Below the pieces are notes generated by a model. That model saw only the letters and a list, made by a program, of their open reading frames with translations. It searched no databases and was not told where the DNA came from. Positions 4,784 to 20,000 of a stretch of 20,000 nucleotides of DNA are shown here, piece after piece. The translations under genes and the position numbers were made by a program. Origin of the DNA: Perkinsus olseni (lineage: Eukaryota); the NCBI GenBank assembly GCA_013115125.1, contig JABANN010000068.1:61644-81643 (forward strand). The letters run 5' to 3'. Position 1 is the stretch's first letter, and each line of letters begins with the position of its first letter.

Positions 4784-7030
4784 TCAACTTCGCAACTGTG
4801 GCGGCGGACAGTGGAATTTCGTGGCGCGCGAAATGGACCTCACTCGGACTCGTCGAAGTACTTCTCTTGTATGTCCTGACATGAACAAGAATATGGAAAA
4901 CATGCGCTCGAAAAAGGTATCTTCCATCCATGCCGTGGCTACCATTTCAAGCTCCCTGCTGATGAACGCATCCAGATCTTCGTCCTCGTCAATTTCAGTG
5001 TAATCGATGAATCTTCCATCTCTGCCGTCAAGGAATCGGGCCTGAGAATGGCGTTGAGAAATTTCAAGATTGCAAGATGTGCTGCTCCTCTTCTCAACTG
5101 ATACATGAATATCAGTTCATGAGGCTTCGAAAGTTGTCGAACAGAATCGCCCACTGACCGCAATCTATCTCTAGCGGAGCGAAGCGTTTTTTCTTGCCTG
5201 CATTGTTTTCCTTAAAGCCTGCACTCTTTCTTCCCGACAGTCGGCTGCCTCGGCGTCGAAGTCAGCAAGATCGATCGACTCAGTGATGAAGTCATCGGCC
5301 AGGGGTTCGAGGCGGGGGTTATTGTGAGGGACGCTCCCGTCGTGGAGATGAGCTTCCATTTGATCTGACATATTCCGTATCTTGCACGCTTAACCACAAG
5401 ACACCCAGCATGTGCGATACATCTCCCACGCAAGCATCAACCAGAGACACCACCAACTGGCCAGAATCTCGCGCGCCGTGATTCGCCCCTCATTGACACT
5501 TACGAGTGACGAGTTATCAGATTCCCCCCATACCACATTTCCACCACATCTCTCGCGAACCAGACCATTTCCGGACCAACAAAAACCAACGACCTCTCAT
5601 CAAGCCACACCGCTCAGGACTTGACCCAGTTCGCCGGATAAGACAAATTGAGATCATTTGCTGTCTGGCAAAACTGGAGGTATCATATTTTGTGATTATC
5701 GAATTTTCCGAAAAACTGCCTCTCATCGAACGGCTTTCCGCAACCGCCGGAGAAGAAGGTAAGAAAGCACCTCACCGACACGATACATTTCCCGGAAATT
5801 AGAAATTTTCCCGCCAGTTAGGTAATTTACGATCTCTTTTCAGGGAAAATCATAAAATTTACGCCAGTTTCGTGAAAACTTGATAATTTTACACTATTTT
5901 CCCCAAAATTCTCCCAGCGTACCAACAATATATGATTTCCTCATCTCCCGCTTGCCCTCCTCATCAGCTGCCGAGTACTCAGCGTCGTCAACTGCATCGA
6001 TCAGCTTCGCTCCGCTCTTTTCTGTGTCGAATTTGCCCACTAGGGAATGCCACAGCCCGGCGTCACGGCGTCGCATTCTAGCCTCGGAAAAGTATCCATC
6101 GATCTTGTCATCTTCGCGCTGCATCCAGAGGACTCTCCGATGACCAACAACTTTTGAATTTCCGGGCGCAGTGACAGGATTTCCGTCATCGCCGTAACAT
6201 TTCGTGGCGCGTGACGCTCCTTGTATGAAGGCAAATACCTAGCGACCAGCGACTTGGAAGGGTATCTTAGGTTGACGCACGCACTTCATGATTGTCGTTG
6301 AGGGCAAGATTGGCGAAATATCCAAGCAACTCGTTTTCGGCAGTGATGATCAAAAGATATCTCTCGAAAAACGTGTGAGGAGAGGTAGTGAGCAGGGTGA
6401 AGAGGGAGGCGCCGACAGCCTGAGATTCACAAAAATTCCGATTCAGCTGATTTAGAAAAAGAGAGAGGGCGGAGCGAAGCGTTTCGAAAACTGCAAAAAG
6501 AAGCAGACAGGCTCGACAGCTGACTTGTTTCGTATCTGCTCATCTTCAACCTATGATACGCCTCGCATCTATCAAGTAACTTCCATAATACAGAATAGCA
6601 GCGATAGGGTTATTTCCGCTAGTATCTTAGGTTGAACCTCAGACTAAATGAAGCGCTAAGATATTTTGCCGCCACACCTTCACATGATTGATTTCTCACA
6701 CGCACATCAACCGCCATAATCTTGCGAATCAGGTTTGAATTCGAAATCCCTACTTTTTCGTCAGAAAATCGGTTGCAATATTCTCCCTTCTCCTTGTCAT
6801 AATAAACTCCACCAGGCAGCGGAATTTCCGCAAATCTGAGCTCAAAAAATACCCCGAAAACGTCACGCGCCACAAAATTACCGTGGACTCGCCATGACCT
6901 TCTGGACGACCTCAGTTGGTTCTAATTTTTCTCCCGCCGGAATTGAACCCTCGAGAGCCCTCCGCAGCTGCTGATGATGGTGGCAGCACGCAGGCGGCTG
7001 ACGTGGCCGTTTGCACTGCACAGAATCCAT
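4784..7030 (-). CDS. CCDC97-like (DUF2052) protein, multi-exon; exact 3' end and some internal exons uncertain
   Basis: Exon peptides LLTTSPHTFFERY..NDNHE|VFAFIQ, HRRVLWMQREDDKIDGYFSEARMRRRDAGLWHSLVGKF and ALRKTMQ|ARFLDGRDGRFIDYTEIDEDEDLD match remembered CCDC97 motifs (PxxFLERY, YFSEExMRxRxPxLY, RFLDGxDxxFDY). ATG at 7030. Confidence 0.75.
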
Positions 7031-7163: not shown

Positions 7164-9438
7164 TCACGCGAGGAAATACCACCTGAAAGATAGAGAGCTT
7201 TGGCGGAACGTGATTGGCGAAGTATCCAAGGTCGAAGCGTGCAAGATACGAGCGAGGTTAAAATCACTGGTGTTTTCAGTCATAACTAATTTGGAGGCAA
7301 GTACCAATCCAGAAGATACTCAATCCAACCTATTCCGCATCTTACCTGCATGAAGCCCAGATACCGCCCTGCATAACTATCGCCACCGCCGCTGTAACCA
7401 TTGCCACTTCAACACAAACCTTCTGACTCGGCTCGGCGACCCCCAATCGTTGCAAAACCGGCGACGCACCAGAAGCTCCATCCACTCCGCCCGTCCGGAG
7501 CAAAGATACGTATATGAATACCATGCTGGTTAGGAATCTAAAGGTTGACCTCGTCATTCACAGACATGAAAGATACTCTCTAAGAAGCGAAAATCGACTC
7601 TGCAATTTTCCGCCAATATTCATACCAAATTTTTCGCTTCTAAATATTACCCAACATTTTTCATCGGCCAAACAATTACCAATACGCACACCGAAAATTC
7701 TCCAACCCCAAATTAAGTCAAAACACGAAATCCTACCATTCTGTTTCTACTAAAAATTTTCCCCTAAAATTCCAACTTACCCGAGACCGCACGCTAAGCT
7801 CTTCACCCATCCCAAAGGCACCATCCACAAAATCGACAGCGGTAACATCACCGCAACGCTGTAACCGTACGAGCTGGTCAACAACAACCACAAAGAAGCC
7901 TTCGCTCCGCCCTGCTGCCCGTGAGCTGGAGGCACTGCGTAGCTCCCTCCGTCATTGGTAGCAGCATCATCGATGACATAAGTGTTGTGTCGAGTAGTAG
8001 CGGGGCGAAGCCAAGCAGGTAGGCGGTCCCACCAGCCGGTCTCGTCGTCGCCGGACGTCTGCTGAGTTCTGTTGGTGATCCAGAGAAGAAGGCCGAGGGT
8101 GATGAGAGGGGCGAGGATAACAACACCGAATAGAACAAGCCACGCTGTTCCTGAAAGAAAATTTTCGCGAAATTTCCGGATACCTTTGACACAGAATTTC
8201 TTGTATAGGAGAAGAGATACGCGTATCTTTCAGCGCACAGCGAAGGTTTTCTTGATTTCTCTGCCAATGAGAATGACCGAAAGGACTCCACCCCATTAAA
8301 AACGCTGGCGAATTCAGGGCGAGAATTTCCGGCTAACGCCTGATTATACGAAAATGCCGCTCCCCAGAATCGAACCCGGGACTTACCAGCCAAAGTGTAA
8401 TCAGTCGTATGAACTTCTCCCTGCTTCGCTCCGCTCAACAATTGGCGAGAAAAGTTCGCGGTTGCGGTTAGAAAAATAACAGCGGTAGTGCAGATCCAGA
8501 ACGGTCCTGGAAAAACGACGCAGCTGAGGATCGATCCGGGGCCCTTCCGACTACGAAGCTCGTCTATACCACGTAAACACACCGAGCCGTGCGAATCACC
8601 GCTAACGTGAAAAGCATGAGAAAAGCACCAAACGCGGTTCGAACCCGCGTCCGGCAAACCCCTAGAAATTTAAAAAAATGTCGAGATTTTTCCGGAAATT
8701 TTCCATCTTATTACCCCACAAATCTGGATTGGTCCGGAATGAAGACAACAGCTGGATGGAGTCCGCAAAGTGACGGGTGAAAAATTGGGCAATTCGGCCG
8801 CCCTCAGGAGAACCGGTTGAGCCGGGAGAGGGGAGCTGGAGGGAAGATGAGGGCGACAGGAGCGACAATCTGACGAAAAAAAAATCCGAAAAATTTGGTG
8901 ATTTTTGACTTACCTGTATGGCCATATGGCGAGTAGAAGTCTTCCTTCAACGTCTCGAGAAGTGACCTGAAAATTCCCAACGAATTAAATGCAGGAAAAA
9001 TACCCCCGCCAGGGATCGAACCCACGCCCTATTACATCGAAGAAGTTATCCTGTATGTATGAAAGTGTTAGTCCGCATGTCAACTTCGACAAGAGCCAAC
9101 CTCCGGATACTTCCGATGATGATGAGGACGCCGCCGCTGCATCGCCTCCAGCGGCAGAACGTCTGGGGGCGCTGTCCAATTGGCCGTCCAGACTGAGTAT
9201 CTTTGATCGATCACTCGATCGATTTCCTTCAACCTCATTGGTATCTTTCGACCCGCTACTGAAGTCAACCATGGGCACATCGTACTTGATAGGACCTAAG
9301 ATATTTCAGGATCAAATTTTTCCCGCGCGCCACGAAATTGTCTGTCATACCGCGCGAAGGTATTTCTTTCTGCTTGTCATCCTCCGTGCCCTCGAAGCCT
9401 TCATCCATCAGAGCTCCAGCGTCGATCGGAACGTACAT
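7164..9438 (-). CDS. Yip1-domain Golgi/ER membrane protein (YIPF1/2-like), multi-exon; may begin further upstream at the WW exon (10431)
   Basis: Spliced peptides DNFFD|VTSRDVEGRLLLAIWPYR, NPDLWG|PFWICTTAVIF, SSYGYSVAVMLPLSILW and terminal RWYFLA* (stop 7164-7166) match the Yip1 motifs FDV..V..R, PDLYGPFWI and YGYS. Phase-compatible exons 9438-9351, 9295-9111, 9050-9036, 8966-8914. Confidence 0.85.
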
Positions 9439-10431: not shown

Positions 10432-10559
10432 AGGGTATCCAAGGTTGAACCGTGCAAGATACGAACTAGGTCAACCTGAACTCCACCCTCACAACTCAAT
10501 TGGGCTTTCAGTGCGGCGGTAATTATAACAAGGAACGTTCAAGGTAGTTTACGTTGAGA

Positions 10560-11261
10560 CTAGAAACAGCACCAACAGTCGAAAGGACAGTCCGGAGTAT
10601 CTGATAGAAAAACAGGAAAATCTGAGTATGAGAGATCCAGCCGTGAAGTCGAGTTCCTAATAATGATTCCTCCACCGACGGATAACTATTAGCTGAATTA
10701 GGGGCACGAACTACATATGCAGCCACAGTACAGAGGTCGACTCTAGTAACCCGCAGAAAAAAAGATACGCCGAGATTCCTTCCCTTATTATTACTTCCCC
10801 CCTGTCCTATCTTCAGCTCTTCCTCAGTATATATTTTATACCCTTCCTCGGTCCGCTTTCGGTCGCCTCCCGACCGGTTGCCGAGTCCGAGTGGATCGTC
10901 CGCTGAGCCCTGGGGTCGGGAGGGGGCGGCAGGCTGCTGCTCCTTGGGGGTATCTTTGGTCTTTGCGGAGGTCGAGGTCGACCTCGTGGATTTCTTTAAT
11001 GCTCCGAAGATATCATCGATCGACTCGGAAGAGGACTCGCGCTTCTTGGTATCTGAGGTTGACCCGTGAAAGATACGAAACAGGTCAACAACTATGCCAC
11101 CAAGTATTACCTTCCTTATGCACGGATGCGGCTTTCTTGCCGTTTTTCCGAATATCCTTCGTCTTGATCTCCTTCCCTAAAAAAATCTCCCTCGCAGGGA
11201 TCGAACCCACTGCCTCCTCACCCTTCGGTTTGGCAGTAGCCTTCGCTGCAGTCGCCGCCAT
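10560..11261 (-). CDS. DUF1764 family protein (3 exons: 11261-11111, 11052-10795, 10600-10560; 149 aa)
   Basis: Spliced translation contains SIDDIFGALKK and ends RKRTEEGYKIYTEEELKIGQGG|NTPDCPFDCWCCF*, the hallmark DUF1764 C-terminus. Exon phases are consistent (450 nt). Confidence 0.9.
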
Positions 11262-11368
11262 AGGAAGAATCCAATCTCCAACCTTGCAAGATACAAAATA
11301 ACTCAACCTCCATGCCATTACACTTCAACACAACACCCACTATCCCGAAACTACTATCTCGTGAACAC

Positions 11369-14300
11369 TCACATCAACTTCTGCTGCATCCACGCCGGCA
11401 ACCACTGGTCGTTCGGATTCCCTCCTTCCCGGTCCATCTTATTCACGTCAATCGGGACGCCCCAGACGCGACAGTACATCGACAGCCCCTTCCCGCACGC
11501 TCGACTGACCCTCGTCCACCACTCGGTCGGGTCCGGCTCCTCATCATAAGTACCATCTTTTTCATAACTCCTCAATACATTCCTCAGCAGATCCCAACCG
11601 AAGGTCTCGATGACATCAACATACATCGTCAGACCCACCCAGGGACTCCAATCGTCCAAGGCGTCAGTAATGGGCGAACGATTATGCGCGGCGGAATAAA
11701 TCGCCCGGCCTCCTCCTTCCGAGCGTATCCTCTCCGTTATGAACTTCTCAGCATCCTCATGCCCCTCCCGGACGTTTTCCATATCCCTAGTCGGAATTTT
11801 TCGCCCAATTATCGTCATCATGCTGTACATACTGAACAGATTCACCGTCACTTCGCCACAGGATTTGTACGTCCACCTTCTCCGCTGGAAATGATGGCCG
11901 AGCTCGTGGAACAACCCCCAATCCCCTTCCAATAGGAGCTTACCAGGGCGATGCGCACCGCGAAGATTCCCTCCATCGCCCCAGACGGCACAGGAATCTT
12001 CCGCCGTAGAATTTTCATGTGCCATGATCGGATAGCCGCTGTGCATCCAACCTGCCGAAATTTCGACGTCAAAAACAAAACGGAATCTTTCTTCCCCGCA
12101 GACCGGCCGACAGGCGATATCGCAGTGGCTTCGAATCACCCTGTCCCAGAAATCTGTGACCGTGTCGGCCCAACCGTCCTCTCCGTCGGCTAAGGCGTGG
12201 GGAAGTAAAAGTCGAGTAGGGAGGGATAAAATAACATGCTTGGCTTGGACCTCTCCCCATGGAGGGTACGCATCTTGCGCACGCGGAAGATTTCTAAGAT
12301 TCCCTACTGGATGCCCGCCGAGCATCCAATGACCGTTAGACCACCACAGCGACGGCACCCCACCTTGCACGCGTGCACATGCCATCAAAATAGAATCAAC
12401 GTTGAGGTTGACTCCGCCGCCGGTAGCCTTGCCCGGCTCAACACCATTCTCGCGTATCCTTTCAAGATACACTAGACCTCCAAAAACTGATACCAGCTCG
12501 ACCTCAAGATTCCTTCCCGAAAGAATATCTTTGCTCACAGCAGAGATTCTGGGCCATCGGCGCCAACTATCATGCTTGGTGTTGTCGTCTTTATGACAGC
12601 CAATCCGAACGCGGAAACCAAAGTCATCGGGAAGAGCATCAGCCATGGAGACGGGGCGACCTTCACCCTTCGACGCTTCCTGCGAACTGCCAGCTTCAAC
12701 CAAAGATTCCAACCTCACCCTGATAGCCTGGCCCGGCCTAGCATAGACACCAGTACTAATCCACGGGTCAAAGCTCCTTCCTGTGACCGAGGAGTGCGGC
12801 GTATTTTTAGTAATGGCTTCGAATCGAACCTCGACCTCCTCGTCGGTGGCACCCTCCGACCTGCTCAGCGCATCTTGCGCCACCGCTGGACAGACCCCAG
12901 GGAAATCTTTTCCCGCGAGGTCGAGCACGTCGTTCATACTGACGTCGCCAGGAATCCTTTGCGGTGCGAACTCCAAGAATGTGGCCACTAGCTGCATCAG
13001 ATTGGTCTTCTTCACACCATCACCGTTCCTCCACCTTCCCGTGGCAGCCTCGGTTAACAACTGGCGTATCTTGGAGGTATCTTCCGAGCTCAAGTGCAAC
13101 CTCTTGTTCACAGCTTGCAGTACAATATCGCCCATCCTGGTCGACTTGCCAGGCACCACGCAAACCTTCATCAACGGAATTAAGGTATGGAAGGAATCTT
13201 TGCTCACTTCGCTAAGCAAGGTCAACCTCCGGTCACTCGTCAGAGGTCGCTGCCCCGGAAGATACTCTGATTCGAAACATATCCCAGCTTGGAGAGCGAC
13301 TTCTTGCATCGGATGTTCGGCGATGGTGTGGCCTCTATTGAGACACTCCCAACCCCATCCGTTAATACCGATCAGCAGACCAACACCTTCCTCTCGTACG
13401 AGAGAAAGAAGCCTATTGGCCTCCTGGGGAGTCGCCGGGTTACTAAGCGAAAGGTCGTTGGTTCGAAACGAGACCACGTCATAATCGTTTCTAGACATAA
13501 CAATATTGTGGTCCTCGTAGAAGCGTACCAGCGTGGCCCTCCTCGACCTGGCCACCCAGCGACGAGCTCTCTGCATCACGCCAGCTGCGACCTTAGATTC
13601 CTCATCCGTAGGGGCATTATCATAAGCTAAGGGTATGTACCTGCCGAGGAAGTCGAAAATTTCCGAGATTACACCGAGTATTTTTTCTAATCGAAAAACC
13701 CATTTTCATTGCTACTATTTTCTCTTTCTCCTTTCTCCTCAAAAAACAAATTGAAGAGAATAAAGACAATAAACAAAATAGCGAAGAAAGAAAATTCGCC
13801 TAGAGAATTTCTAGAACGCCATTGTGTACACACGCGATATGAAATCATACATGCCCATCTACCGACGTATCTTAGGTCGACCCGTGGCTTTGATATAGCC
13901 GAAGATATTCCAATACTATGCCGTCGTAACGGATACATGGCGAGGCGTTCCAACTTGTGAGAACGAGTGAGTAAGTATGTTGATAGAAAATGTGAAGAAC
14001 AAAAAGGGTATCTTTGATGAGCGTGGGATGCAAGGTTCGACCTCCATATTACCCTTCATGCCCGACAGCAACAATGCGTCCTTTGCCGAGGGTAGCACAG
14101 GCGAGGAGACACTGGGGCTCCGGTCCGGGGGTGGCGATGATAGATCGTGACGTATCCGAGAACACCGATAGCTGAATCATAGGTCGATCCATGACTTTCA
14201 CGGAGAGGAAAGATACTTACTGTTGATGGAGTGCCTATCACTTGGAACTTGCTCATATTAAGATGGTCTGTTATCTCGTCGAGAGCGGCATCCAGCGGAC

Positions 14301-14418: not shown

Positions 14419-15179
14419 TTCTATGAAAATAAATTAACTGATTATGAGCGAGCGCGGTTCATGCATTCCTAGGAAGAGAAAATATCCTGTTCAACCTGGG
14501 ACTCAAGAGGCGATTTTGAAGTAGACTCTTACGACACGAAAGATGCTAAAGCAAAAGACTAAAAGAAAGAAAAATCAAAGACACCAAAGATTTCCACTAA
14601 TATAAAAATAAGCTTCCCGTGAACGCTCCTCGTTACGCAAACACCAAAATGACCTCCGAGGAGCTGAGACGATCAGTGAAAAGTCAAACGCCCGCCAGGC
14701 GTACATCCCTAGCACAGCGAGGGTTTGCTGCTCAACCTTCCCACTGAGGTTGAGCAGTGCAGGGCGAGAGTGGCTTCCAGTTCTCGTTTTCTTGCGCACT
14801 TCTAGCGCTGTGAAAGTGAGCTGAAGATCATAAGCGACTGGGTATTCCTCGAGGGGAGATCCAAGAGGAGTACTGACTCAGCAACGCCGAAGCAATATGG
14901 GTGATGTTAAACGCCAAAAGCATTCTGGCAAATCCATGCCCAGCCTTCCGACTGGACTCTAGTCACTAGAGTATCCCCAGCATTAACGCGACTAGCGTTC
15001 TTATTTGTTGAAACGTAAGTAAGTCGGGTAATAGCCAAAGCAACTACTGTAGTCATCGCATTCACATTGGATCACATAGGAATCTTCCAGCCGTTTCATA
15101 ACCGAGAAGAATCTTCATAATGGCGCGCCCCAAATCGATCGTAACCTTCCTGCGCAGACCTACGATACTCAATTGACAA

Positions 15180-15413
15180 ATGCCTGCCATTAAAAAAAGT
15201 GACACCCCCCGTCCGGGGGCAAAGGCTGCCGGGGAAGTGGACTTCCCATACCTCGGCACTGACGGTGCTCGCCCCGTCAAAAAACAAAGAAACGGCCAGC
15301 CCGTTGGTTGGCTGCCTCCTTTCCCTCCTTGGGGGGAGTGGGAGTTCACTATCCTTCACCGACGCCGAATATGCGGCTCGGTGAAGAAGAAGCTCGACTT
15401 CTCAGATTGCTGA
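15180..15413 (+). CDS. 77-aa micro-protein of unknown function, left copy of the inverted pair
   Basis: ATG-initiated; 60/77 residues identical to the right copy. Many third-position synonymous differences and one in-frame 6-nt indel. Confidence 0.65.
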   Translation: MPAIKKSDTPRPGAKAAGEVDFPYLGTDGARPVKKQRNGQPVGWLPPFPPWGEWEFTILHRRRICGSVKKKLDFSDC

Positions 15414-15670
15414 GAAAGTCGCTGCTTGAAAAATAACAAAAAACAATAAAAAACTTATGGGGACCGAATCAACTCCACCTCCCCGCGGAGGTGGAACCAC
15501 TTCCATAAGTGGTTCCATAACCAGCGCTGTGATGTTTAACAGAGCTCCGTTAGCAAAGCGTTCTCAGCGAGTGAGAGCCGCTTCCCCAGGGACCACCGCG
15601 GGGAGGTGGAGTTGACTCGGTCCCCATAAGTTTTTTATTGTTTTTTGTTATTTTTCAAGCATCGACTTTC

Positions 15671-15910
15671 TCAGCAATCTGAGAAGTCGAGCTTCTTCTT
15701 CACCGAGCCGCACATTCGGCGTCGGTGAAGGGTGGCGAACTCCAATTCCCCCCAAGGAGGGAAAGGAGGCAACCAGCCTTGCGGCAGGCCATTTCGCTGC
15801 CTTTTGTCAGGGCGAACCCCGTCAAAGCCGAGGTATGGGAAATCCACTTCCTCGGAAGGCTTAACCCCGCAGGCCGGGCGGGGAGTATCTTTTTTCTTTA
15901 TAACGATCAT
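15671..15910 (-). CDS. 79-aa micro-protein of unknown function, right copy of the inverted pair
   Basis: ATG-initiated paralogue ending in the same ..GSVKKKLDFSDC*. Its stop codon mirrors the left copy exactly. Confidence 0.65.
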   Translation of the reverse strand: MIVIKKKDTPRPACGVKPSEEVDFPYLGFDGVRPDKRQRNGLPQGWLPPFPPWGELEFATLHRRRMCGSVKKKLDFSDC

Positions 15911-16065
15911 CGTTATTTAATCTTGAGCCGGCGCACCTTGGGGACTTCGATCGATTTGTGGCGCGCTCCGAGAAAGATTCCTCGGGATATGAAACGGCTG
16001 ATGGCGCGCCGATCTTCCTCGGAAAGAATCGGTAGCGGTGGTTCCCCATCACTATAGAGAAGCTC

Positions 16066-18470
16066 TATTTTGAAGTCACTCTAGTTATGTAGCGTTTCAG
16101 GAGGGTGCCGCCGAGGGACTTGTCGTAATAGACATTTGCTGTTTCGGTTTGCGTTGCGTAACAGTGGGGAAAGGCCGCGCTCAAATGTATTGATCCGTGC
16201 TTCTCCGTGGAAGGCTTCCGTGATAGCGAACGCTGAGCGATTCAGCACGACCACTCAACGGCTGAGAGAATAGTCGTTTACGGTTCGCTTGTGGTTCGTA
16301 TGACCTACCATGCCAGACATGTATAGTTCTGCTTCCATCCGAAAATGAGAGGATGAATTTTGGAATCTTCCCACGTGAATATCGGCCGCTGTGTTGCGTT
16401 GATCGCCATTAGCCGTGAGATTGACGTTCCCGGCCGGACCAACAAGCGGCATGTCCAAGCGTACATCACCACCTGTGTGCTTGAGGCTTCACGGGCTTAC
16501 CCTTTCGTGCTTCCTCGGATGATTCCCCAGCCCAGTGTAGCAAACTACGTTCCCATAGAGATCTTTTCTATTAAGTAGCGTTTGCACTACTACCGCGCGA
16601 CCCTTCGGCAAGTAGTGCCTGGCTGGCTATTCATTCGAGTTGTGCTCCTAGGGGAGAACGCAAGCCTTGAACTGGTAGATTGTATCGGCCTGGGCGCTTT
16701 TCTGAACAAGCTGATGGACTGTGTTTACACTGAATTGTTTAGTGTTACTTTACCGTCATGATACCTACAACGCGAGCTCCCGCACGCCGTATCTTTCCAC
16801 CTCTGAGGTTGAAGCTGGTTAGATACAACACAACTGTCCCTGCGGCGGATGAGGTGAGTGAGAATCTTGCCAAATTGTTCAAATCTCAGACCATCTTGTT
16901 GATAGTTCTTTTGTGTCCGACTGAAAGAGTGAAACAACTAAATTAGAATATCGGTCTTTCTCAGCCGGGAATTTCAATTTACGTAACTTTCCCACCATAA
17001 TAGCTCCATAGCATTCAAACGGGAATTAGTGTGCTGAACCTCTCCCTGTACTTTTTTGTGAGTCTCTTCGCCCACCTGCCGTTACACAGGTTGTAACAGA
17101 GCAAGAGCGATGGGAGTTACATTCGTCCAAGTCGTGGATGGAGTCCCCCATAGCACTCACGAAGTTGGTATGGCGAACCTCCATGAGGGGAGTTCGAGAT
17201 GAGCGCCTATGGGCCAAGCTAAGTACGTAGAGTTGTGGCGAATCTTCCAACTGCGCTCATGATCGGTAGTATTGATGATGGTTGAGAATATTCTTTCTGG
17301 CGAGTTCGAAGATTCCTGTCCGTCTGCGAGGAAGTTCGTCTCAGAGAAATGCTGGATGTTTTGTTTTTTTTCAGAGGTATGGTAGCCCTTTATTGGGACA
17401 TATATATGGTCAGCAAAAGAATTTTATAGAATGGTTGTTCTCAACTGAATTGGGCGAATTTTTCCGAGCGAGAATCGACACGGGTGTTGGGTCATGGATT
17501 TCATCTTAGTACAGAGCAGGACAACAGCCCGCCAACAGCCAGTTCAAAAATATGGATTTGATTCAAAACTTGCGAAGCTCGTTGGAGGGTTCCGCGGTGG
17601 GAAAAATCCTCTTATGGTCGCAATTGTAGTCCTTCCAATCGTCATATAATCGTCATTAATTTTTCCTTCCTGATTGTTTCCTGCGTGTAATTATAATTTT
17701 ATGTCAGGTAAACGTGCTGTGTTAATGTCGGTTCACATGGGTCATCGGGAGCTCACCACGTGTCTTTTGGGATTCGCAAAGATACGCTACAGAGACCCCA
17801 AGGTCACCAGCTGCCGCTTCCTCGAAGAATTCTAATTGCACCGTTTTTTCAGTTACTACAGTCGATCAGTCCGGCCATATTGAAAAATATATCGGAATTT
17901 GATACGTTGGAATTGGCGCTCCTTCTCGGTGCGTATCGACGACTGGAGTATCGCCGAATCGACCAGATAGAGCTGCTCACGAATGAGGTAATAATGATGA
18001 TGAGGAGGAGGAGGGCGTAATAATAGGACTGACCCTGAGGCTTACATCGATGTGTTGTCGTTATTGCTGGTCCAGCCAGCAGAAAGGCATACATCGCACT
18101 TTTCCGACGGTATACTCTTCTAATGTCCACACAGGGAAGCTCGGTTTCTGTATTAGAATGGATCATAATAGTGTGCAGAGACTCCTGTCTCTAGGTTGTT
18201 GAAAGTAGTCGATAATTAGTTTCCTTCGCGTGGCGAGTTGTCGATGGCGAATTTACATGATAGTGGAGCATTACACTGGGAGAGCGACTCGCAACCTTCT
18301 CCGAGTGCGTTTTGGTCGGCCGTTCAATTCCCTTTCTATAATATCAACATGCATAGCGTCGTTCCCGTGGCATTCGGAAGTGGATTTGCGGATGCTGGAC
18401 ATCATACTCCTGTGTCATCTTATCGACGTCGCGTTTCTGATGTCTGCCCGGGATTTTTAGGAATGATTTT
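16066..18470 (-). pseudogene. Possible degenerate or lineage-specific multi-exon gene
   Basis: Several exon-sized open segments with AG/GT borders (e.g. ~16235-16066, ~16482-16310, ~16620-16501, ~18148-18047). In-frame stops and phase conflicts prevent a clean model; no family recognised. Confidence 0.25.
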
Positions 18471-18878
18471 ATGTTGTTATGCACCTATCACGTGGTCTCA
18501 TCTCATCGGTGGCATCATTCGAAACAGATGGTGGACACAGGACGAGGAGGCGCTACTGCGCCACGAATTTCCTCTCTTTCAGTTGTGTCTGCCGGATCGG
18601 ATACCCACATGGACCTCTTTAATAATCGCCCTATCATGTAATGCAGCGGGGGTATTCGGCATCTATCATGCTCCATTTTGGAACGCCGTCGGGAGGGAAA
18701 TTGAAAGAGCGACGGTAATAACGGGAAGGCACTTTCGCCAGTCTGCGCTGGGTTTGAGTGAACTGTTCACCACCACCGCTGCTGCTGCTGTGGACTCGTC
18801 ACCGACATCAATTCACTTTAGGCTTAGGTTAAAATACTCAGCGCCAAAGATCCTGATCTACACCATTTCCAGACCTAC

Positions 18879-19010
18879 TTAGTAAAACCCCAGAGCAATT
18901 TAATAAAGCCCAGCCCAAATTAGTAAAACCCCAAAGCAATTTAATAAAGCCCAGACCAAATTAGTAAAACCCCAAAGCAATTTAATTTCGTGAAAGACCA
19001 ATTTAGTAGA
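18879..19010. repeat. 41-bp tandem repeat (about 3 copies, built of two related 20-21-bp subunits), probably subterminal repeats of the adjacent transposon
   Basis: TTAGTAAAACCCCA(G/A)AGCAAT-TTAATAAAGCCCAG(C/A)CCAAA starts at 18879 and 18920, with a diverging copy at 18961 and a remnant at 19003. It lies ~100 bp beyond the transposase stop. Confidence 0.9.
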
Positions 19011-19110
19011 GCTCAACAAAGCCACCAACAAAGATGGAAACACTGACAATCGTCGGCCTACATGGAGTAAGCCCACGATATGCTACAGAATGTAGGTTAG
19101 GCATGCTAAA

Positions 19111-20000
19111 TCAGACTCCAACTTGCATGTCTTCCATAGCTAAGCAACGAGGGTATAATGTTTGGACGTGATTGAAGCATCGTATACACAGCTGCATAGT
19201 AATCGCTTCAACACCTTTTCGGAGCAGCATCTCACAGTACTGCAGGCGGTATTCTGATTTCGTTCTACCGGCTCTTCCATTGTCCCATTCCTCGCGGAGG
19301 AGAAGCTGCTTCGTCAACGCGTTTTCTCTCTTCATCGCTTGTTTCGCAGCCGAGAAACAGTCTTCTATAGGGTTTATGCTAAAAGAGTAGGGTGACAAGC
19401 GCAAGAGTCGGGTACCTGATAGAAGCTCATAGACAAGCGACGGCCTTGCGATTACATACCTCTGCCATTGAATACAGCTTCTAACCCGGAGTGGGCCGGT
19501 GCGTTGTCACCGACGAACACCAGAGTCGTCAAATCATGACCCGCCTCCTGCATGCTGTCCAGCATCTCCCCAACAATTTCCGCGCAGACACCCTTGGTGA
19601 TGCTACCTCTTTGGATCTTGTGGTATCCCAAACCGGTCTGGGTAATGCAGCAAAAGCAGTGGATATTGGGTCCTTTGCTGGACCCCTCCTTCAGAACAGC
19701 TCGCGAACCCTTTATCGACCTAGCAACTCCTCGCTTTACAAACAAATTCACATTCGTCTCATCGAAGTATACCAATCTCTCACATGGTATGGCCGAAACT
19801 GCCTGCACAAATTCCCGGCGTTTTTGGCGATTAATCAAATTATTGACCGCTTCACCCTCAATGTGTGGACGCTTGACAGTATAGGCCCTGGAATCCAGAT
19901 GGTTCTTCACAGTTTGAGCACAGACGTCGATTCTCTTCTCGCGCCACAAGTGATCAGCCATCATCTGCAAGGTGGCCTGGGGGTTAGCCTCCACGAAGGA
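19111..20000 (-). mobile_element. IS630/Tc1/mariner (DDE_3) transposase, 5' part outside the window, one 44-bp intron (19459-19416)
   Basis: HTH-like ANPQATLQMMADHL..TVKNHL and catalytic YFDET, VGDNAPAH, RLSPYSFSINPIE. Two ORFs are joined in frame by a GTATGT..ATCAG intron. Confidence 0.92.

What the first reader, a model, noticed from the sequence alone, without database searches (positions are those of the whole stretch)
15088..16000. Palindromic cassette of two convergent paralogous micro-proteins under apparent purifying selection
Seen: two tail-to-tail ATG ORFs (77 and 79 aa, 60/77 identical) form the arms of an inverted repeat around a 99-nt spacer. Differences include many synonymous ones (ATT/ATA, AAA/AAG, GAC/GAT twice, ACC/ACT, CGT/CGC) and a frame-preserving 6-nt indel, which argues both are or were translated. 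They share VDFPYLG, GWLPPFPPWGE and a C-terminal VKKKLDF. Established: [RK]xLxF is the cyclin-docking Cy motif (E2F1 KRRLDL, p21 KRRLIF), often mimicked by viruses. Inference: an undescribed micro-protein family, possibly carried by a mobile or viral element. The layout could yield hairpin dsRNA on read-through, or allow the spacer to invert. I recognise no family.
Basis: partly seen in the sequence, partly recalled or inferred. Interest (0 to 1): 0.8.

Follow-up and report, generated by a model that had tools for sequence, protein, structure and literature searches.

The report
Mirror-image pair of tiny Perkinsus genes
Two mirror-image copies of a small gene found only in the shellfish parasite Perkinsus sit tail to tail in a 0.9-kb DNA palindrome, both still look protein-coding, and one is followed by a sequence that may fold into a self-cutting RNA.

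Summary
Arms 15088-15492 and 15592-16000 form an imperfect palindrome around a 99-nt centre. Each arm carries about 90 nt of upstream DNA, one ATG ORF (77 or 79 aa; 60 identical residues) and 79 nt of 3' flank.

The window is Perkinsus olseni-like. The only relative among billions of proteins is a 78-aa hypothetical protein of P. marinus (72-74% identical). It apparently lies beside the same M60 peptidase neighbour.

Coding constraint is supported:
- dN/dS is about 0.25.
- The sense frame is the best of six.
- Indels inside the ORFs are in frame.
- A second strain shows 5 synonymous and 3 non-synonymous changes in ORF A.

The arms are near-identical only in their inner 117 nt, which fits arm-to-arm gene conversion. 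I found no sign of a virus, a high-copy transposon or an assembly artefact. The cyclin-docking, dsRNA and inversion ideas remain untested.

New here: a candidate HDV-like self-cleaving ribozyme on the minus strand (15625-15541), just behind ORF B. It scores below Rfam's thresholds, and its P2 stem is weaker than the published search pattern requires. Another strain's contig diverges 3 nt past its end.

The scan had not met this element before. It is a lineage-specific gene pair of unknown function, of moderate interest.

The parts
15088..15179 (+). Outer left arm: region upstream of ORF A. It shares conserved blocks with the right arm (15088-15100 and 15109-15141) and has many non-3n indels. 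It holds an 18-codon uORF starting at ATG 15120.
15180..15413 (+). ORF A, 77 aa. This is the faster-changing copy. It is intact in the window, and the covered part (15180-15390) is intact in strain X7.
15414..15492 (+). Inner left arm: an A-rich 3' flank of ORF A, followed by an 8-bp hairpin. It has 3 differences from the right arm in 79 nt.
15376..15708 (.). Homogenised core of the palindrome: 117 nt + 99-nt centre + 117 nt. The arms differ at 3 of 117 positions here, against 30 of 160 further out. It includes the last 12 codons (and the last base of the codon before them) and the stop codon of both ORFs.
15493..15591 (.). 99-nt non-palindromic centre. The left part holds a 10-bp hairpin (15493-15516). 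The right part (15541-15591) would be the 3' half of the ribozyme candidate. In strain X7 other sequence joins at 15536 and 15538.
15541..15625 (-). Candidate HDV-like self-cleaving ribozyme. The predicted cut lies between 15626 and 15625, 45 nt after the ORF B stop codon. The predicted catalytic C is at 15553.
15592..15670 (-). Inner right arm: an A-rich 3' flank of ORF B, followed by the 5' half of the ribozyme candidate.
15671..15910 (-). ORF B, 79 aa. This copy is closer to the P. marinus protein. It is nearly invariant between strains, and contigs of RNA-type runs cover it.
15911..16000 (-). Outer right arm: region upstream of ORF B. It shows 0 differences between strains in 90 nt. Together with the next 55 nt it is covered by a 182-nt contig of a run recorded as RNA.

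Best explanation
The cassette is an old inverted (tail-to-tail) duplication of one small nuclear gene of Perkinsus. Each arm is a gene unit: about 90 nt of conserved upstream sequence, a stand-alone ATG ORF of 77-79 codons, and an A-rich 3' flank.

The product is a basic (pI 9.4-10), proline- and tryptophan-rich protein that is probably largely disordered. It carries three invariant short motifs and is known only from Perkinsus. Both copies have been kept open by purifying selection. Copy B is the more conserved one, and the RNA evidence falls on it.

The two arms exchange sequence by gene conversion. This has made the inner 117 nt of each arm almost identical, while the outer parts have drifted to about 0.5-0.7 synonymous changes per site.

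Shown:
- the palindrome itself;
- the substitution and indel pattern;
- the P. marinus homologue;
- coverage of ORF B by contigs of RNA-type runs.

Inferred:
- translation;
- gene conversion as the cause of the identity step;
- synteny with P. marinus, which rests on two equal contig lengths;
- with about even odds, that transcripts of copy B are cut 45 nt behind the stop codon by an HDV-like ribozyme. That ribozyme would either set the mRNA's 3' end just after an encoded A-rich tract, or be the 5' end of a retroelement that is or was lodged there.

The protein's cellular role is unknown. My guess is a short-motif adaptor or a kinase substrate, based on the invariant DTPRP and KKKLDF motifs. 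That guess is weak.
For: (1) Substitution pattern. NG86 on A against B gives 20.5 synonymous changes on 53.3 sites and 21.5 non-synonymous on 177.7 sites, dN/dS 0.245. Fisher p is 8e-5 on the rounded counts 20/53 and 22/178.

(2) Frame test on the ungapped 195 nt. The sense frame has the lowest pN/pS of the six frames (0.37; the others run 0.58-1.64). The open antisense frame gives 1.64. In 5000 simulated substitution sets, 1.1% reach the observed synonymous count, and 0.44% do so without creating a stop.

(3) Indels. The ORFs differ by one 2-codon gap, and strain X7 has a 3-nt deletion in ORF A. The 92-nt upstream arm needs 9 gaps of 1, 2 or 4 nt, none a multiple of 3.

(4) Both ATGs lie 1-2 codons after an in-frame stop, so the ORFs stand alone.

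(5) Relatives. P0001 of P. marinus (78 aa) is the only hit of the search for homologous proteins (E 6e-31, 74% to B). It is also the only hit of the HMMER scan of 1.84 billion representatives (E 2e-28, 72% to A). 49 columns are invariant among the three sequences.

(6) Neighbour gene. The adjacent M60 peptidase is 83% identical to a Logan protein on a contig of 26,021 nt. P0002, the P. marinus-type micro-protein, is also recorded on a contig of 26,021 nt. The micro-protein's 72-74% identity is therefore in the range of an ordinary conserved gene at an apparently orthologous locus.

(7) Strain X7.
- ORF A has 5 synonymous and 3 non-synonymous changes (binomial p 0.019).
- 4 of those 8 changes switch to the other arm's letter.
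- ORF B plus its upstream arm has 1 difference in 307 nt, against 12 in 303 nt in the adjoining flank on the same contig (p 0.0016).

(8) RNA-type contigs. A 182-nt contig of X20, recorded as metatranscriptomic RNA, matches 15874-16055 exactly. Contigs of X8, guessed to be RNA, match 15598-15817 and 15809-16119 exactly.

(9) Identity step: 30 of 160 against 3 of 117. The P. marinus protein is no more conserved over the last 13 residues (10 of 13, read). That favours conversion over selection as the cause of the step.

(10) Ribozyme candidate.
- Two Rfam HDV models hit the same place on the ORF B strand.
- The published loose-P4 search pattern, relaxed to a 4-bp P2, finds exactly this site and no other in the window. 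It finds a hit in 8 of 1500 dinucleotide shuffles.
- All proposed pairs are standard: P1 7 of 7 including G1-U, P3 3 of 3, P1.1 2 of 2, P4 11 of 11, P2 4+3.
Against: - ORF length alone is not significant (417 of 1000 shuffles).
- Two antisense frames are also open in both arms.
- ORF A changes between strains as fast as the flanks: 10 differences in 303 nt against 23 in 791 nt, p 0.70.
- No P. olseni annotation in the protein collection contains either ORF (one search lists no row for the window's own proteins).
- AlphaFold gives no confident fold: mean pLDDT 50, pTM 0.12, from 3 sequences.
- Transcription rests on contigs, which show neither strand nor ends. X8's RNA status is a guess, and X6 looks like DNA.
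- One X8 contig leaves the window's sequence at 15809. On the + strand this place looks like a 3' splice site, so some of the RNA could be antisense.
- A uATG at 16049 opens an overlapping reading frame in the long leader of ORF B.
- Synteny with P. marinus is inferred only from equal contig lengths.
- Ribozyme: both Rfam scores are far below gathering (26.6 against 50; 24.9 against 44). The window-wide E-values are 3.1 and 0.62.
- Ribozyme: the published pattern's 6-bp P2 is not met.
- Ribozyme: the nested minimum-energy fold (-32.4 kcal/mol) is a different structure from the HDV-like nested part (-24.2; -29.5 with P1 enforced).
Confidence: 0.7

Rival explanations
1. Only copy B is a working gene. 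Copy A is a redundant or decaying duplicate whose frame is kept open mainly because arm-to-arm gene conversion keeps copying B into it.
For: - Between strains, B plus its upstream arm has 1 difference in 307 nt, while A plus its upstream arm has 10 in 303 nt and an indel.
- 4 of the 8 changes in A switch to B's letter.
- Against the P. marinus protein, A carries 6 private changes and B carries 3 (read).
- The contigs of RNA-type runs that were laid fall on the B side.
- The two arm-A differences inside the ribozyme's 5' half both break proposed pairs, at ribozyme positions 10 and 31.
Against: - A is intact in the window, and its covered part is intact in strain X7.
- Within-species changes in A are 5 synonymous to 3 non-synonymous, and the indel is in frame.
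- The 6-to-3 count of private changes is not significant.
- Lack of RNA cover on A in contig data is no evidence.
Confidence: 0.25
2. The palindrome is non-coding: a fold-back or MITE-like transposon, or a hairpin-RNA locus that yields small RNAs. On this reading the ORFs are chance open frames.
For: - The 913 nt would fold into one long hairpin: -624.6 kcal/mol against a mean of -299.7 in 20 shuffles.
- ORFs of this length are common in shuffles.
- The best-conserved part of the arms includes non-coding sequence.
- Pieces of the centre join other sequence in strain X7, and a short-centred variant appears in X8.
- A 7-nt direct repeat (15082-15088 and 16012-16018) could be read as a target duplication.
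- An earlier scan note (e1-7222305) reports Dicer-like genes in this genome.
Against: - The excess of synonymous changes is specific to the sense frame.
- Indels inside the ORFs are in frame.
- A P. marinus protein is 72-74% identical.
- There is no other copy in the window.
- Contigs run from unique flank into the arms.
- Transitions are not biased toward G-U pairs on one strand (5 against 13, with 15 transversions).
- The 7-nt repeat needs asymmetric element ends and is part of a motif that recurs in the arms.
Confidence: 0.1
3. The transcribed unit on the right arm is a plus-strand exon that is antisense to ORF B.
For: One 661-nt contig of X8 matches 15809-16119 and then continues into 349 unlike letters. 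The break lies at a pyrimidine-rich stretch ending in AG, read on the + strand. A + strand frame is open over 15725-16057.
Against: - That antisense frame has pN/pS 1.64 between the arms.
- The 30 letters beyond the break do not occur in the window, even with 3 mismatches allowed. A nearby upstream exon is therefore missing.
- The AG is not kept at the mirror position of arm A.
- Another X8 contig runs straight through the site (15598-15817).
Confidence: 0.07
4. The palindrome is an assembly fold-back artefact.
For: Palindromes are a known product of chimeric reads. Short-read contigs break at the centre.
Against: - The arms differ at 12-20% of positions and by indels.
- Runs of two studies hold 0.96-0.97 of the sampled words.
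- A divergent strain (X7) carries both arms, each with its own differences.
Confidence: 0.01

Closest known systems
Hypothetical protein Pmar_PMAR025566 of Perkinsus marinus ATCC 50983 (XP_002765222.1, 78 aa)
   Same: It has the same length and the same start and stop positions. It is 72-74% identical, and all three motif blocks are invariant. It is probably next to the same M60 peptidase gene.
   Different: It is uncharacterised. No paper in the library names it by locus tag or accession. Whether it also sits in an inverted pair could not be checked, because no P. marinus DNA was within reach.
Gene-bearing palindromes with arm-to-arm gene conversion on mammalian sex chromosomes (abstracts of PMC8600007 and PMC8327919, seen in the listing)
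   Same: Inverted arms around a unique spacer carry paralogous genes. Sequence is exchanged between the arms, and the genes appear preserved by selection.
   Different: Those palindromes are over 10 kb with over 99% arm identity. This one has about 405-nt arms with 80-88% identity overall. Only the inner 117 nt is near-identical (97%). It carries one micro-gene per arm and lies in a protist.
HDV-like self-cleaving ribozymes (Rfam RF00094, RF02682; search patterns in the supplement of PMC4870747), often found at the 5' end of non-LTR retrotransposons such as R2 (abstract of PMC3774820)
   Same: The candidate has:
- a 7-bp P1 starting with a G-U pair;
- a 3-bp P3;
- an L3 that fits TYYHCGY;
- GG in J1/4 that can form P1.1;
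- a P4 hairpin;
- CNRA in J4/2.
In another strain a 5.8-kb contig continues into unlike sequence 3 nt beyond its 3' end.
   Different: - It scores below both Rfam gathering thresholds.
- P2 is 4+3 bp with a 4-nt bulge, not 6 contiguous pairs.
- It lies behind a protein-coding micro-gene, and its 5' half lies inside a palindrome arm.
- No retroelement body is present in the window.
- Cleavage is untested.
Inverted-duplication hairpin loci that feed RNA interference (hpRNA and proto-miRNA genes; recalled, no paper read here)
   Same: An inverted duplication of a gene could fold into a long hairpin if transcribed across the centre.
   Different: Both arms keep a selected reading frame. There is no strand bias toward G-U pairs. 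No read-through transcript or small-RNA data were available.

Membership tests
HDV-like self-cleaving ribozyme | P1 helix of 6-7 bp that starts with G paired to a pyrimidine | tested here: met
   7 of 7 standard pairs, the first one G-U
HDV-like self-cleaving ribozyme | 3-bp Watson-Crick P3 closing an L3 of the form TYYHCG(N)Y | tested here: met
   The pattern is taken from the PMC4870747 supplement. The match was found by script, and cmscan aligns the same columns.
HDV-like self-cleaving ribozyme | J1/4 of the form RN that can form P1.1 with L3, and J4/2 of the form CNRA with the catalytic C | tested here: met
   GG follows P1 and pairs with CC of L3. CUAA precedes the P2 3' strand.
HDV-like self-cleaving ribozyme | P2 of 6 or more contiguous pairs closing the double pseudoknot | tested here: not met
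   Only 4 contiguous pairs, plus 3 more beyond a 4-nt bulge
HDV-like self-cleaving ribozyme | Score at or above the Rfam gathering threshold | tested here: not met
   RF00094 scores 26.6 against 50. RF02682 scores 24.9 against 44. Window-wide E-values are 3.1 and 0.62.
HDV-like self-cleaving ribozyme | Site-specific self-cleavage 5' of G1 | not testable with these tools
   Needs an in-vitro cleavage assay or RNA end mapping
Palindrome with arm-to-arm gene conversion | Inverted arms around a unique spacer, with paralogous genes in the arms | tested here: met
Palindrome with arm-to-arm gene conversion | Evidence of sequence exchange between the arms | tested here: inconclusive
   There is a sharp identity step (30 of 160 against 3 of 117). 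4 of 8 strain differences in ORF A switch to the other arm's letter. No phylogeny of arms across species was possible.
Fold-back or MITE-like DNA transposon | Many dispersed copies with target-site duplications | tested here: not met
   There is no second copy in the 20 kb. Contigs pass from unique flank into the arms. The only flanking direct repeat (7 nt) needs asymmetric ends. The whole genome was not available.
Cyclin-docking (Cy / RxL) motif proteins | [RK]-x-L-x-F motif that binds a cyclin's hydrophobic patch | not testable with these tools
The pattern K-K-L-D-F is present and invariant in 3 of 3 sequences.

The most novel reading that the evidence does not exclude
Copy B of a conserved Perkinsus micro-gene is co-transcribed with an HDV-like ribozyme that cuts 45 nt behind its stop codon, right after a genome-encoded A-rich tract. 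One reading is that the ribozyme sets the 3' end of a protein-coding mRNA. The other is that it is the 5' end of a roughly 6-kb retroelement that borrows this gene's promoter, much as R2 borrows rRNA transcription. That element would be present in one strain and lost from the window's strain. The palindrome partner would have lost its own ribozyme.
Probability: 0.25. Interest if true: 0.65.

Novelty: new member of a known kind. Interest (0 to 1): 0.4.

Why it matters
Perkinsus olseni and P. marinus are major parasites of clams and oysters, and their genomes are poorly annotated. This locus shows that a conserved gene under 80 codons, restricted to this lineage, has escaped annotation in P. olseni. 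It also offers a very small, tractable example of a gene-bearing palindrome in which arm-to-arm conversion and selection can be measured between strains. If the ribozyme candidate is active, it would be, by my one literature search (no paper holds both 'HDV-like ribozyme' and 'Perkinsus'), the first HDV-like ribozyme reported in this group. It would also be placed unusually, behind a protein-coding gene.

Tried and rejected
- Whole-genome search: no genome is held for this window, so copy number and pairing elsewhere in the genome could not be counted.
- tRNA and Rfam scans at gathering thresholds: 0 hits.
- Relatives in metagenome contigs: 425 pattern matches, 0 confirmed. In viral contigs: 69 pattern matches, 0 confirmed.
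- Exact 26-nt ribozyme core in metagenome contigs: 0.
- Longer proteins: none of 2190 candidates passed.
- Earlier scan notes by place and by sequence: nothing on this element.
- Scan notes by words: nothing relevant.
- ESM Atlas: no usable hit.
- AlphaFold: mean pLDDT 50, so no fold search was run.
- The Rfam uc_338 hits on both strands are an effect of the palindrome and are far below gathering.
- The X8 loose end, and the 21 letters between its joint, do not occur in the window.
- Selection for a hairpin RNA: G-U-compatible transitions number 5 against 13, which is not significant.
- Target-site duplication: only a 7-nt repeat, and only with asymmetric ends. By my rough estimate chance would give this about 4% of the time over the 25 x 25 grid of end positions searched.
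- In the contig data, RNA-type runs X8 and X20 gave no cover on the left arm or on the outer flanks, and X6 and X7 contigs stop at the arm centre. Contigs cannot show absence, so I draw nothing from these gaps.
- A 71-nt, depth-2 contig of X8 joins 15457 to 15627 through 21 other letters. It is too thin to interpret.
- Papers: the listings showed nothing on this locus.
Full report
**What is there**

The region 15088-16000 is an imperfect palindrome. The repeat finder reports ungapped arms 15216-15492 and 15592-15868: 277 nt, 88% complementary, 99 nt apart. It also reports an outer 36-nt pair at 15106-15141 / 15948-15983. A gapped local alignment joins these into arms 15088-15492 and 16000-15592. 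blastn gives 79.7% over 414 columns, E 1e-101.

Each arm contains, from outside to centre:
- about 92 nt of upstream sequence with conserved blocks and many small indels;
- an ATG ORF: A at 15180-15413 (+, 77 aa) and B at 15671-15910 (-, 79 aa);
- 79 nt of A-rich 3' flank.

The ORFs share 60 identical residues and differ by one 2-codon gap. So the arms are whole small gene units, not just the ORFs. The two stop codons are 257 nt apart.

**Where it comes from**

No genome is held for the window. There are no tRNA genes and no Rfam hits at gathering thresholds.

The window has the look of a eukaryote with split genes:
- TauE pieces at about 1.5-3.3 kb;
- CCDC97-like pieces at 4.8-6.2 kb;
- DUF1764 at 10.5-11.2 kb;
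- an M60 peptidase at 11.4-13.7 kb;
- a DDE_3 transposase piece at the right end.

The M60 ORF is 96% identical to a Perkinsus olseni protein and 76% identical to one of P. chesapeaki. This agrees with earlier scan notes that call this genome P. olseni. The palindrome lies in a stretch of roughly 3 kb in which no ORF matched a Pfam family.

**Is it coding?**

ORF length alone says nothing. 417 of 1000 shuffles of the 913 nt contain an ATG ORF of 77 aa or more, and antisense frames are open too. The case rests on other evidence.

*Substitutions between the arms.*
- The 42 nucleotide differences fall 8, 13 and 21 on codon positions 1, 2 and 3.
- NG86 gives 20.5 synonymous changes on 53.3 sites and 21.5 non-synonymous on 177.7 sites, dN/dS 0.245. 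Fisher p is 8e-5 on rounded counts.
- On the ungapped 195 nt, the sense frame has the lowest pN/pS of all six frames (0.37). The open antisense frame has 1.64.
- Of 5000 random substitution sets with the same number and type of changes, 1.1% reach the observed synonymous count. Only 0.44% do so without a stop.

*Indels.*
- The only indel between the ORFs is 6 nt.
- A second strain (run X7) has a 3-nt deletion in ORF A.
- The 92-nt upstream arm needs 9 gaps, none a multiple of three.

*ORF boundaries.* Both ATGs follow an in-frame stop within 1-2 codons.

*Other species.*
- A word-indexed search of 5.8 billion proteins found a single relative. So did a full HMMER scan of 1.84 billion cluster representatives.
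- That relative is a 78-aa hypothetical protein of P. marinus. It is 74% identical to B and 72% to A.
- 49 columns are invariant among the three sequences, grouped in DTPRP, EVDFPYLG, GWLPPFPPWGE, LHRR and SVKKKLDFS.
- A Logan copy of that protein (P0002) is recorded on a contig of 26,021 nt. The Logan M60 peptidase that is 83% identical to the window's is recorded on a contig of the same length.
- I read this as the same contig, and hence as conserved gene order. It is an inference.
- 72-74% identity for the micro-protein, against 83% for its neighbour, is what an ordinary but somewhat faster-evolving gene would show.

**Strain comparison**

A contig of X7 (same organism code, another sample) covers 14600-15390 with 23 differences and the 3-nt deletion. 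Another covers 15694-16347.
- In ORF A, 5 of the 8 substitutions are synonymous (binomial p 0.019).
- 4 of those 8 switch to the letter of the other arm.
- ORF B plus its upstream arm shows 1 difference in 307 nt. The adjoining flank on the same contig shows 12 in 303 nt (p 0.0016).
- ORF A plus its upstream arm (10 in 303 nt) is no better conserved than the flanks (23 in 791 nt, p 0.70).

Copy B is therefore clearly constrained within the species. Copy A is intact but looser.

**The identity step**

Arm differences number 30 in 160 nt over 15216-15375 and 3 in 117 nt over 15376-15492 (p 1.9e-5). The near-identical part includes the last 12 codons, synonymous sites included, and the whole 3' flank.

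The P. marinus protein is not specially conserved there (10 of the last 13 residues). I therefore attribute the step to gene conversion spreading from the centre, not to selection. The four strain differences that swap to the other arm's letter point the same way. Outside the converted zone the synonymous distance is about 0.5-0.7, so the duplication is old. The motif sites that A shares with B, and those that B shares with P. marinus, are about equal in number in the outer part (my count). Whether the duplication predates the split of the two species is open.

**Expression**

Only contigs were available, so strand, ends and level cannot be read.
- A 182-nt contig of X20, a run recorded as metatranscriptomic RNA, matches 15874-16055 exactly.
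- Contigs of X8, guessed to be RNA, match 15598-15817 and 15809-16119 exactly.
- X6, also guessed to be RNA, is covered flatly across both flanks and looks like DNA.

This is modest support for transcription of the B side.

One X8 contig leaves the window at 15809. On the + strand that place looks like a 3' splice site. The letters beyond it are not in the window. This remains unexplained.

**Not a virus, a high-copy transposon or an artefact**

- No relatives were found in viral or metagenome contigs.
- There is no second copy in the window.
- Contigs of X6 and X7 run from unique flank through each ORF and stop only about 30 nt into the 50-nt run where the two arms are identical.
- Runs of two studies hold 0.96-0.97 of the sampled words.
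- Diverged arms cannot be a fold-back chimera.
- The only flanking direct repeat is 7 nt, needs asymmetric ends, and belongs to a motif that recurs in the arms.

**The protein**

- It is basic (pI 9.4-10.0), with 8-10 prolines and 2-3 tryptophans in 77-79 residues.
- It has no Pfam match at E up to 10, one chance-level PDB match and no Atlas lead.
- The AlphaFold model has mean pLDDT 50 and one helix at residues 50-65.
- It is probably largely disordered and works through short motifs.
This fits a cyclin/CDK-docking idea but does not test it.

**A candidate ribozyme**

A permissive Rfam scan of the region gave two HDV-family hits on the minus strand, behind ORF B:
- RF00094 at 15627-15541, 26.6 bits against a gathering score of 50;
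- RF02682 at 15625-15554, 24.9 bits against 44.

On the whole window their E-values are 3.1 and 0.62, so the scores alone are at chance level.

I then took the published search patterns for HDV-like ribozymes from the supplement of PMC4870747 (passages, supplement part 4). I coded the loose-P4 version with P2 relaxed to 4 contiguous pairs.
- It finds exactly one site in the window: minus strand 15625-15545, with a 7-bp P1 and a 7-nt L3.
- It finds a hit in 8 of 1500 dinucleotide-shuffled windows. With P2 of 6 or more pairs the figure is 1 of 1500.
- All proposed pairs are standard: P1 7 of 7 beginning with G-U, P3 3 of 3, P1.1 2 of 2, P4 11 of 11, and P2 4 pairs plus 3 beyond a 4-nt bulge.

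Points against:
- the published 6-bp P2 is not met;
- the nested minimum-energy fold (-32.4 kcal/mol) differs from the HDV-like nested part (-24.2, or -29.5 with P1 enforced, before any pseudoknot contribution).

Three circumstances raise my odds to about one half:
- It lies on the strand of ORF B, 45 nt after the stop codon and directly after an A-rich tract.
- In X7, a 5,845-nt contig carries a diverged copy of 15613-15538. Its changes (15568, 15571, 15583) fall in the P4 loop and at the junction before P4. The contig then runs on for about 5.8 kb unlike the window, from 3 nt beyond the ribozyme's last proposed pair.
- The two differences of arm A within the shared 5' half both break proposed pairs. 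No hit appears on the A side.

HDV-like ribozymes often head non-LTR retrotransposons (abstract of PMC3774820; supplement text of PMC4870747). So the X7 contig may be such an element. I could not read it.

No paper in the library holds both 'HDV-like ribozyme' and 'Perkinsus'.

**Verdict**

The reading of 'two translated paralogues under purifying selection' is largely supported, more firmly for B than for A. The mobile or viral, cyclin-docking, dsRNA and inversion ideas are unsupported or untested.

The thing is a lineage-specific micro-gene in a small, old palindrome that is partly homogenised by gene conversion. It is a new member of known kinds, with one speculative extra: the ribozyme candidate.

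Noticed in passing
window 15536-15538 (centre of the palindrome): In strain X7, contigs match up to 15536 and from 15538 and then continue into unlike sequence on both sides. One of them is 5,845 nt long. An 87-nt contig also bridges the site. This looks like a structural polymorphism, an insertion or replacement, at the centre.
   Followed up: partly
window 15809-16119: A 661-nt contig of run X8 matches this stretch exactly and then continues into 349 unlike letters at 15809. On the + strand that place looks like a 3' splice acceptor. The unlike letters are not in the window.
   Followed up: partly
window 8350-8384, 8511-8545, 8996-9030, 11181-11215: Four copies of a 35-nt repeat contain a tRNA T-arm-like GGATCGAACCC core on the reverse strand, yet ARAGORN finds no tRNA gene. 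They may be tRNA-derived relics. An earlier scan note (e1-7221871) links such pieces in this genome to Dada transposons.
   Followed up: no
window 7221-7262, 10434-10475, 11048-11089, 11266-11307 (partial copy at 16802-16832; inverted copy at 5366-5406): A dispersed motif of about 42 nt recurs in 4-6 copies at 65-86% identity to each family's reference copy, inside and between genes. Its nature is unknown.
   Followed up: no
window 18869-19012: A tandem array of 20-21-nt units (six overlapping 41-nt copies) begins at the end of a 214-aa ORF (18238-18882) that has no Pfam match.
   Followed up: no
window 19452-20000 (minus strand): An open-ended ORF has a weak DDE_3 (Tc1/mariner-type transposase) match, E 4.5e-5, below Pfam's cut-off. 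It lies 3.5 kb from the palindrome and shows no link to it.
   Followed up: no
window 11372-13705 (minus strand): An M60 (enhancin-like) peptidase gene is 96% identical to a P. olseni protein. One P. olseni gene model in the database merges it with the neighbouring DUF1764 gene, which suggests an annotation error there.
   Followed up: partly
window 15120-15176: An 18-codon upstream ORF lies in frame with ORF A and ends one codon before its ATG. Arm B has no ATG at the matching place.
   Followed up: no
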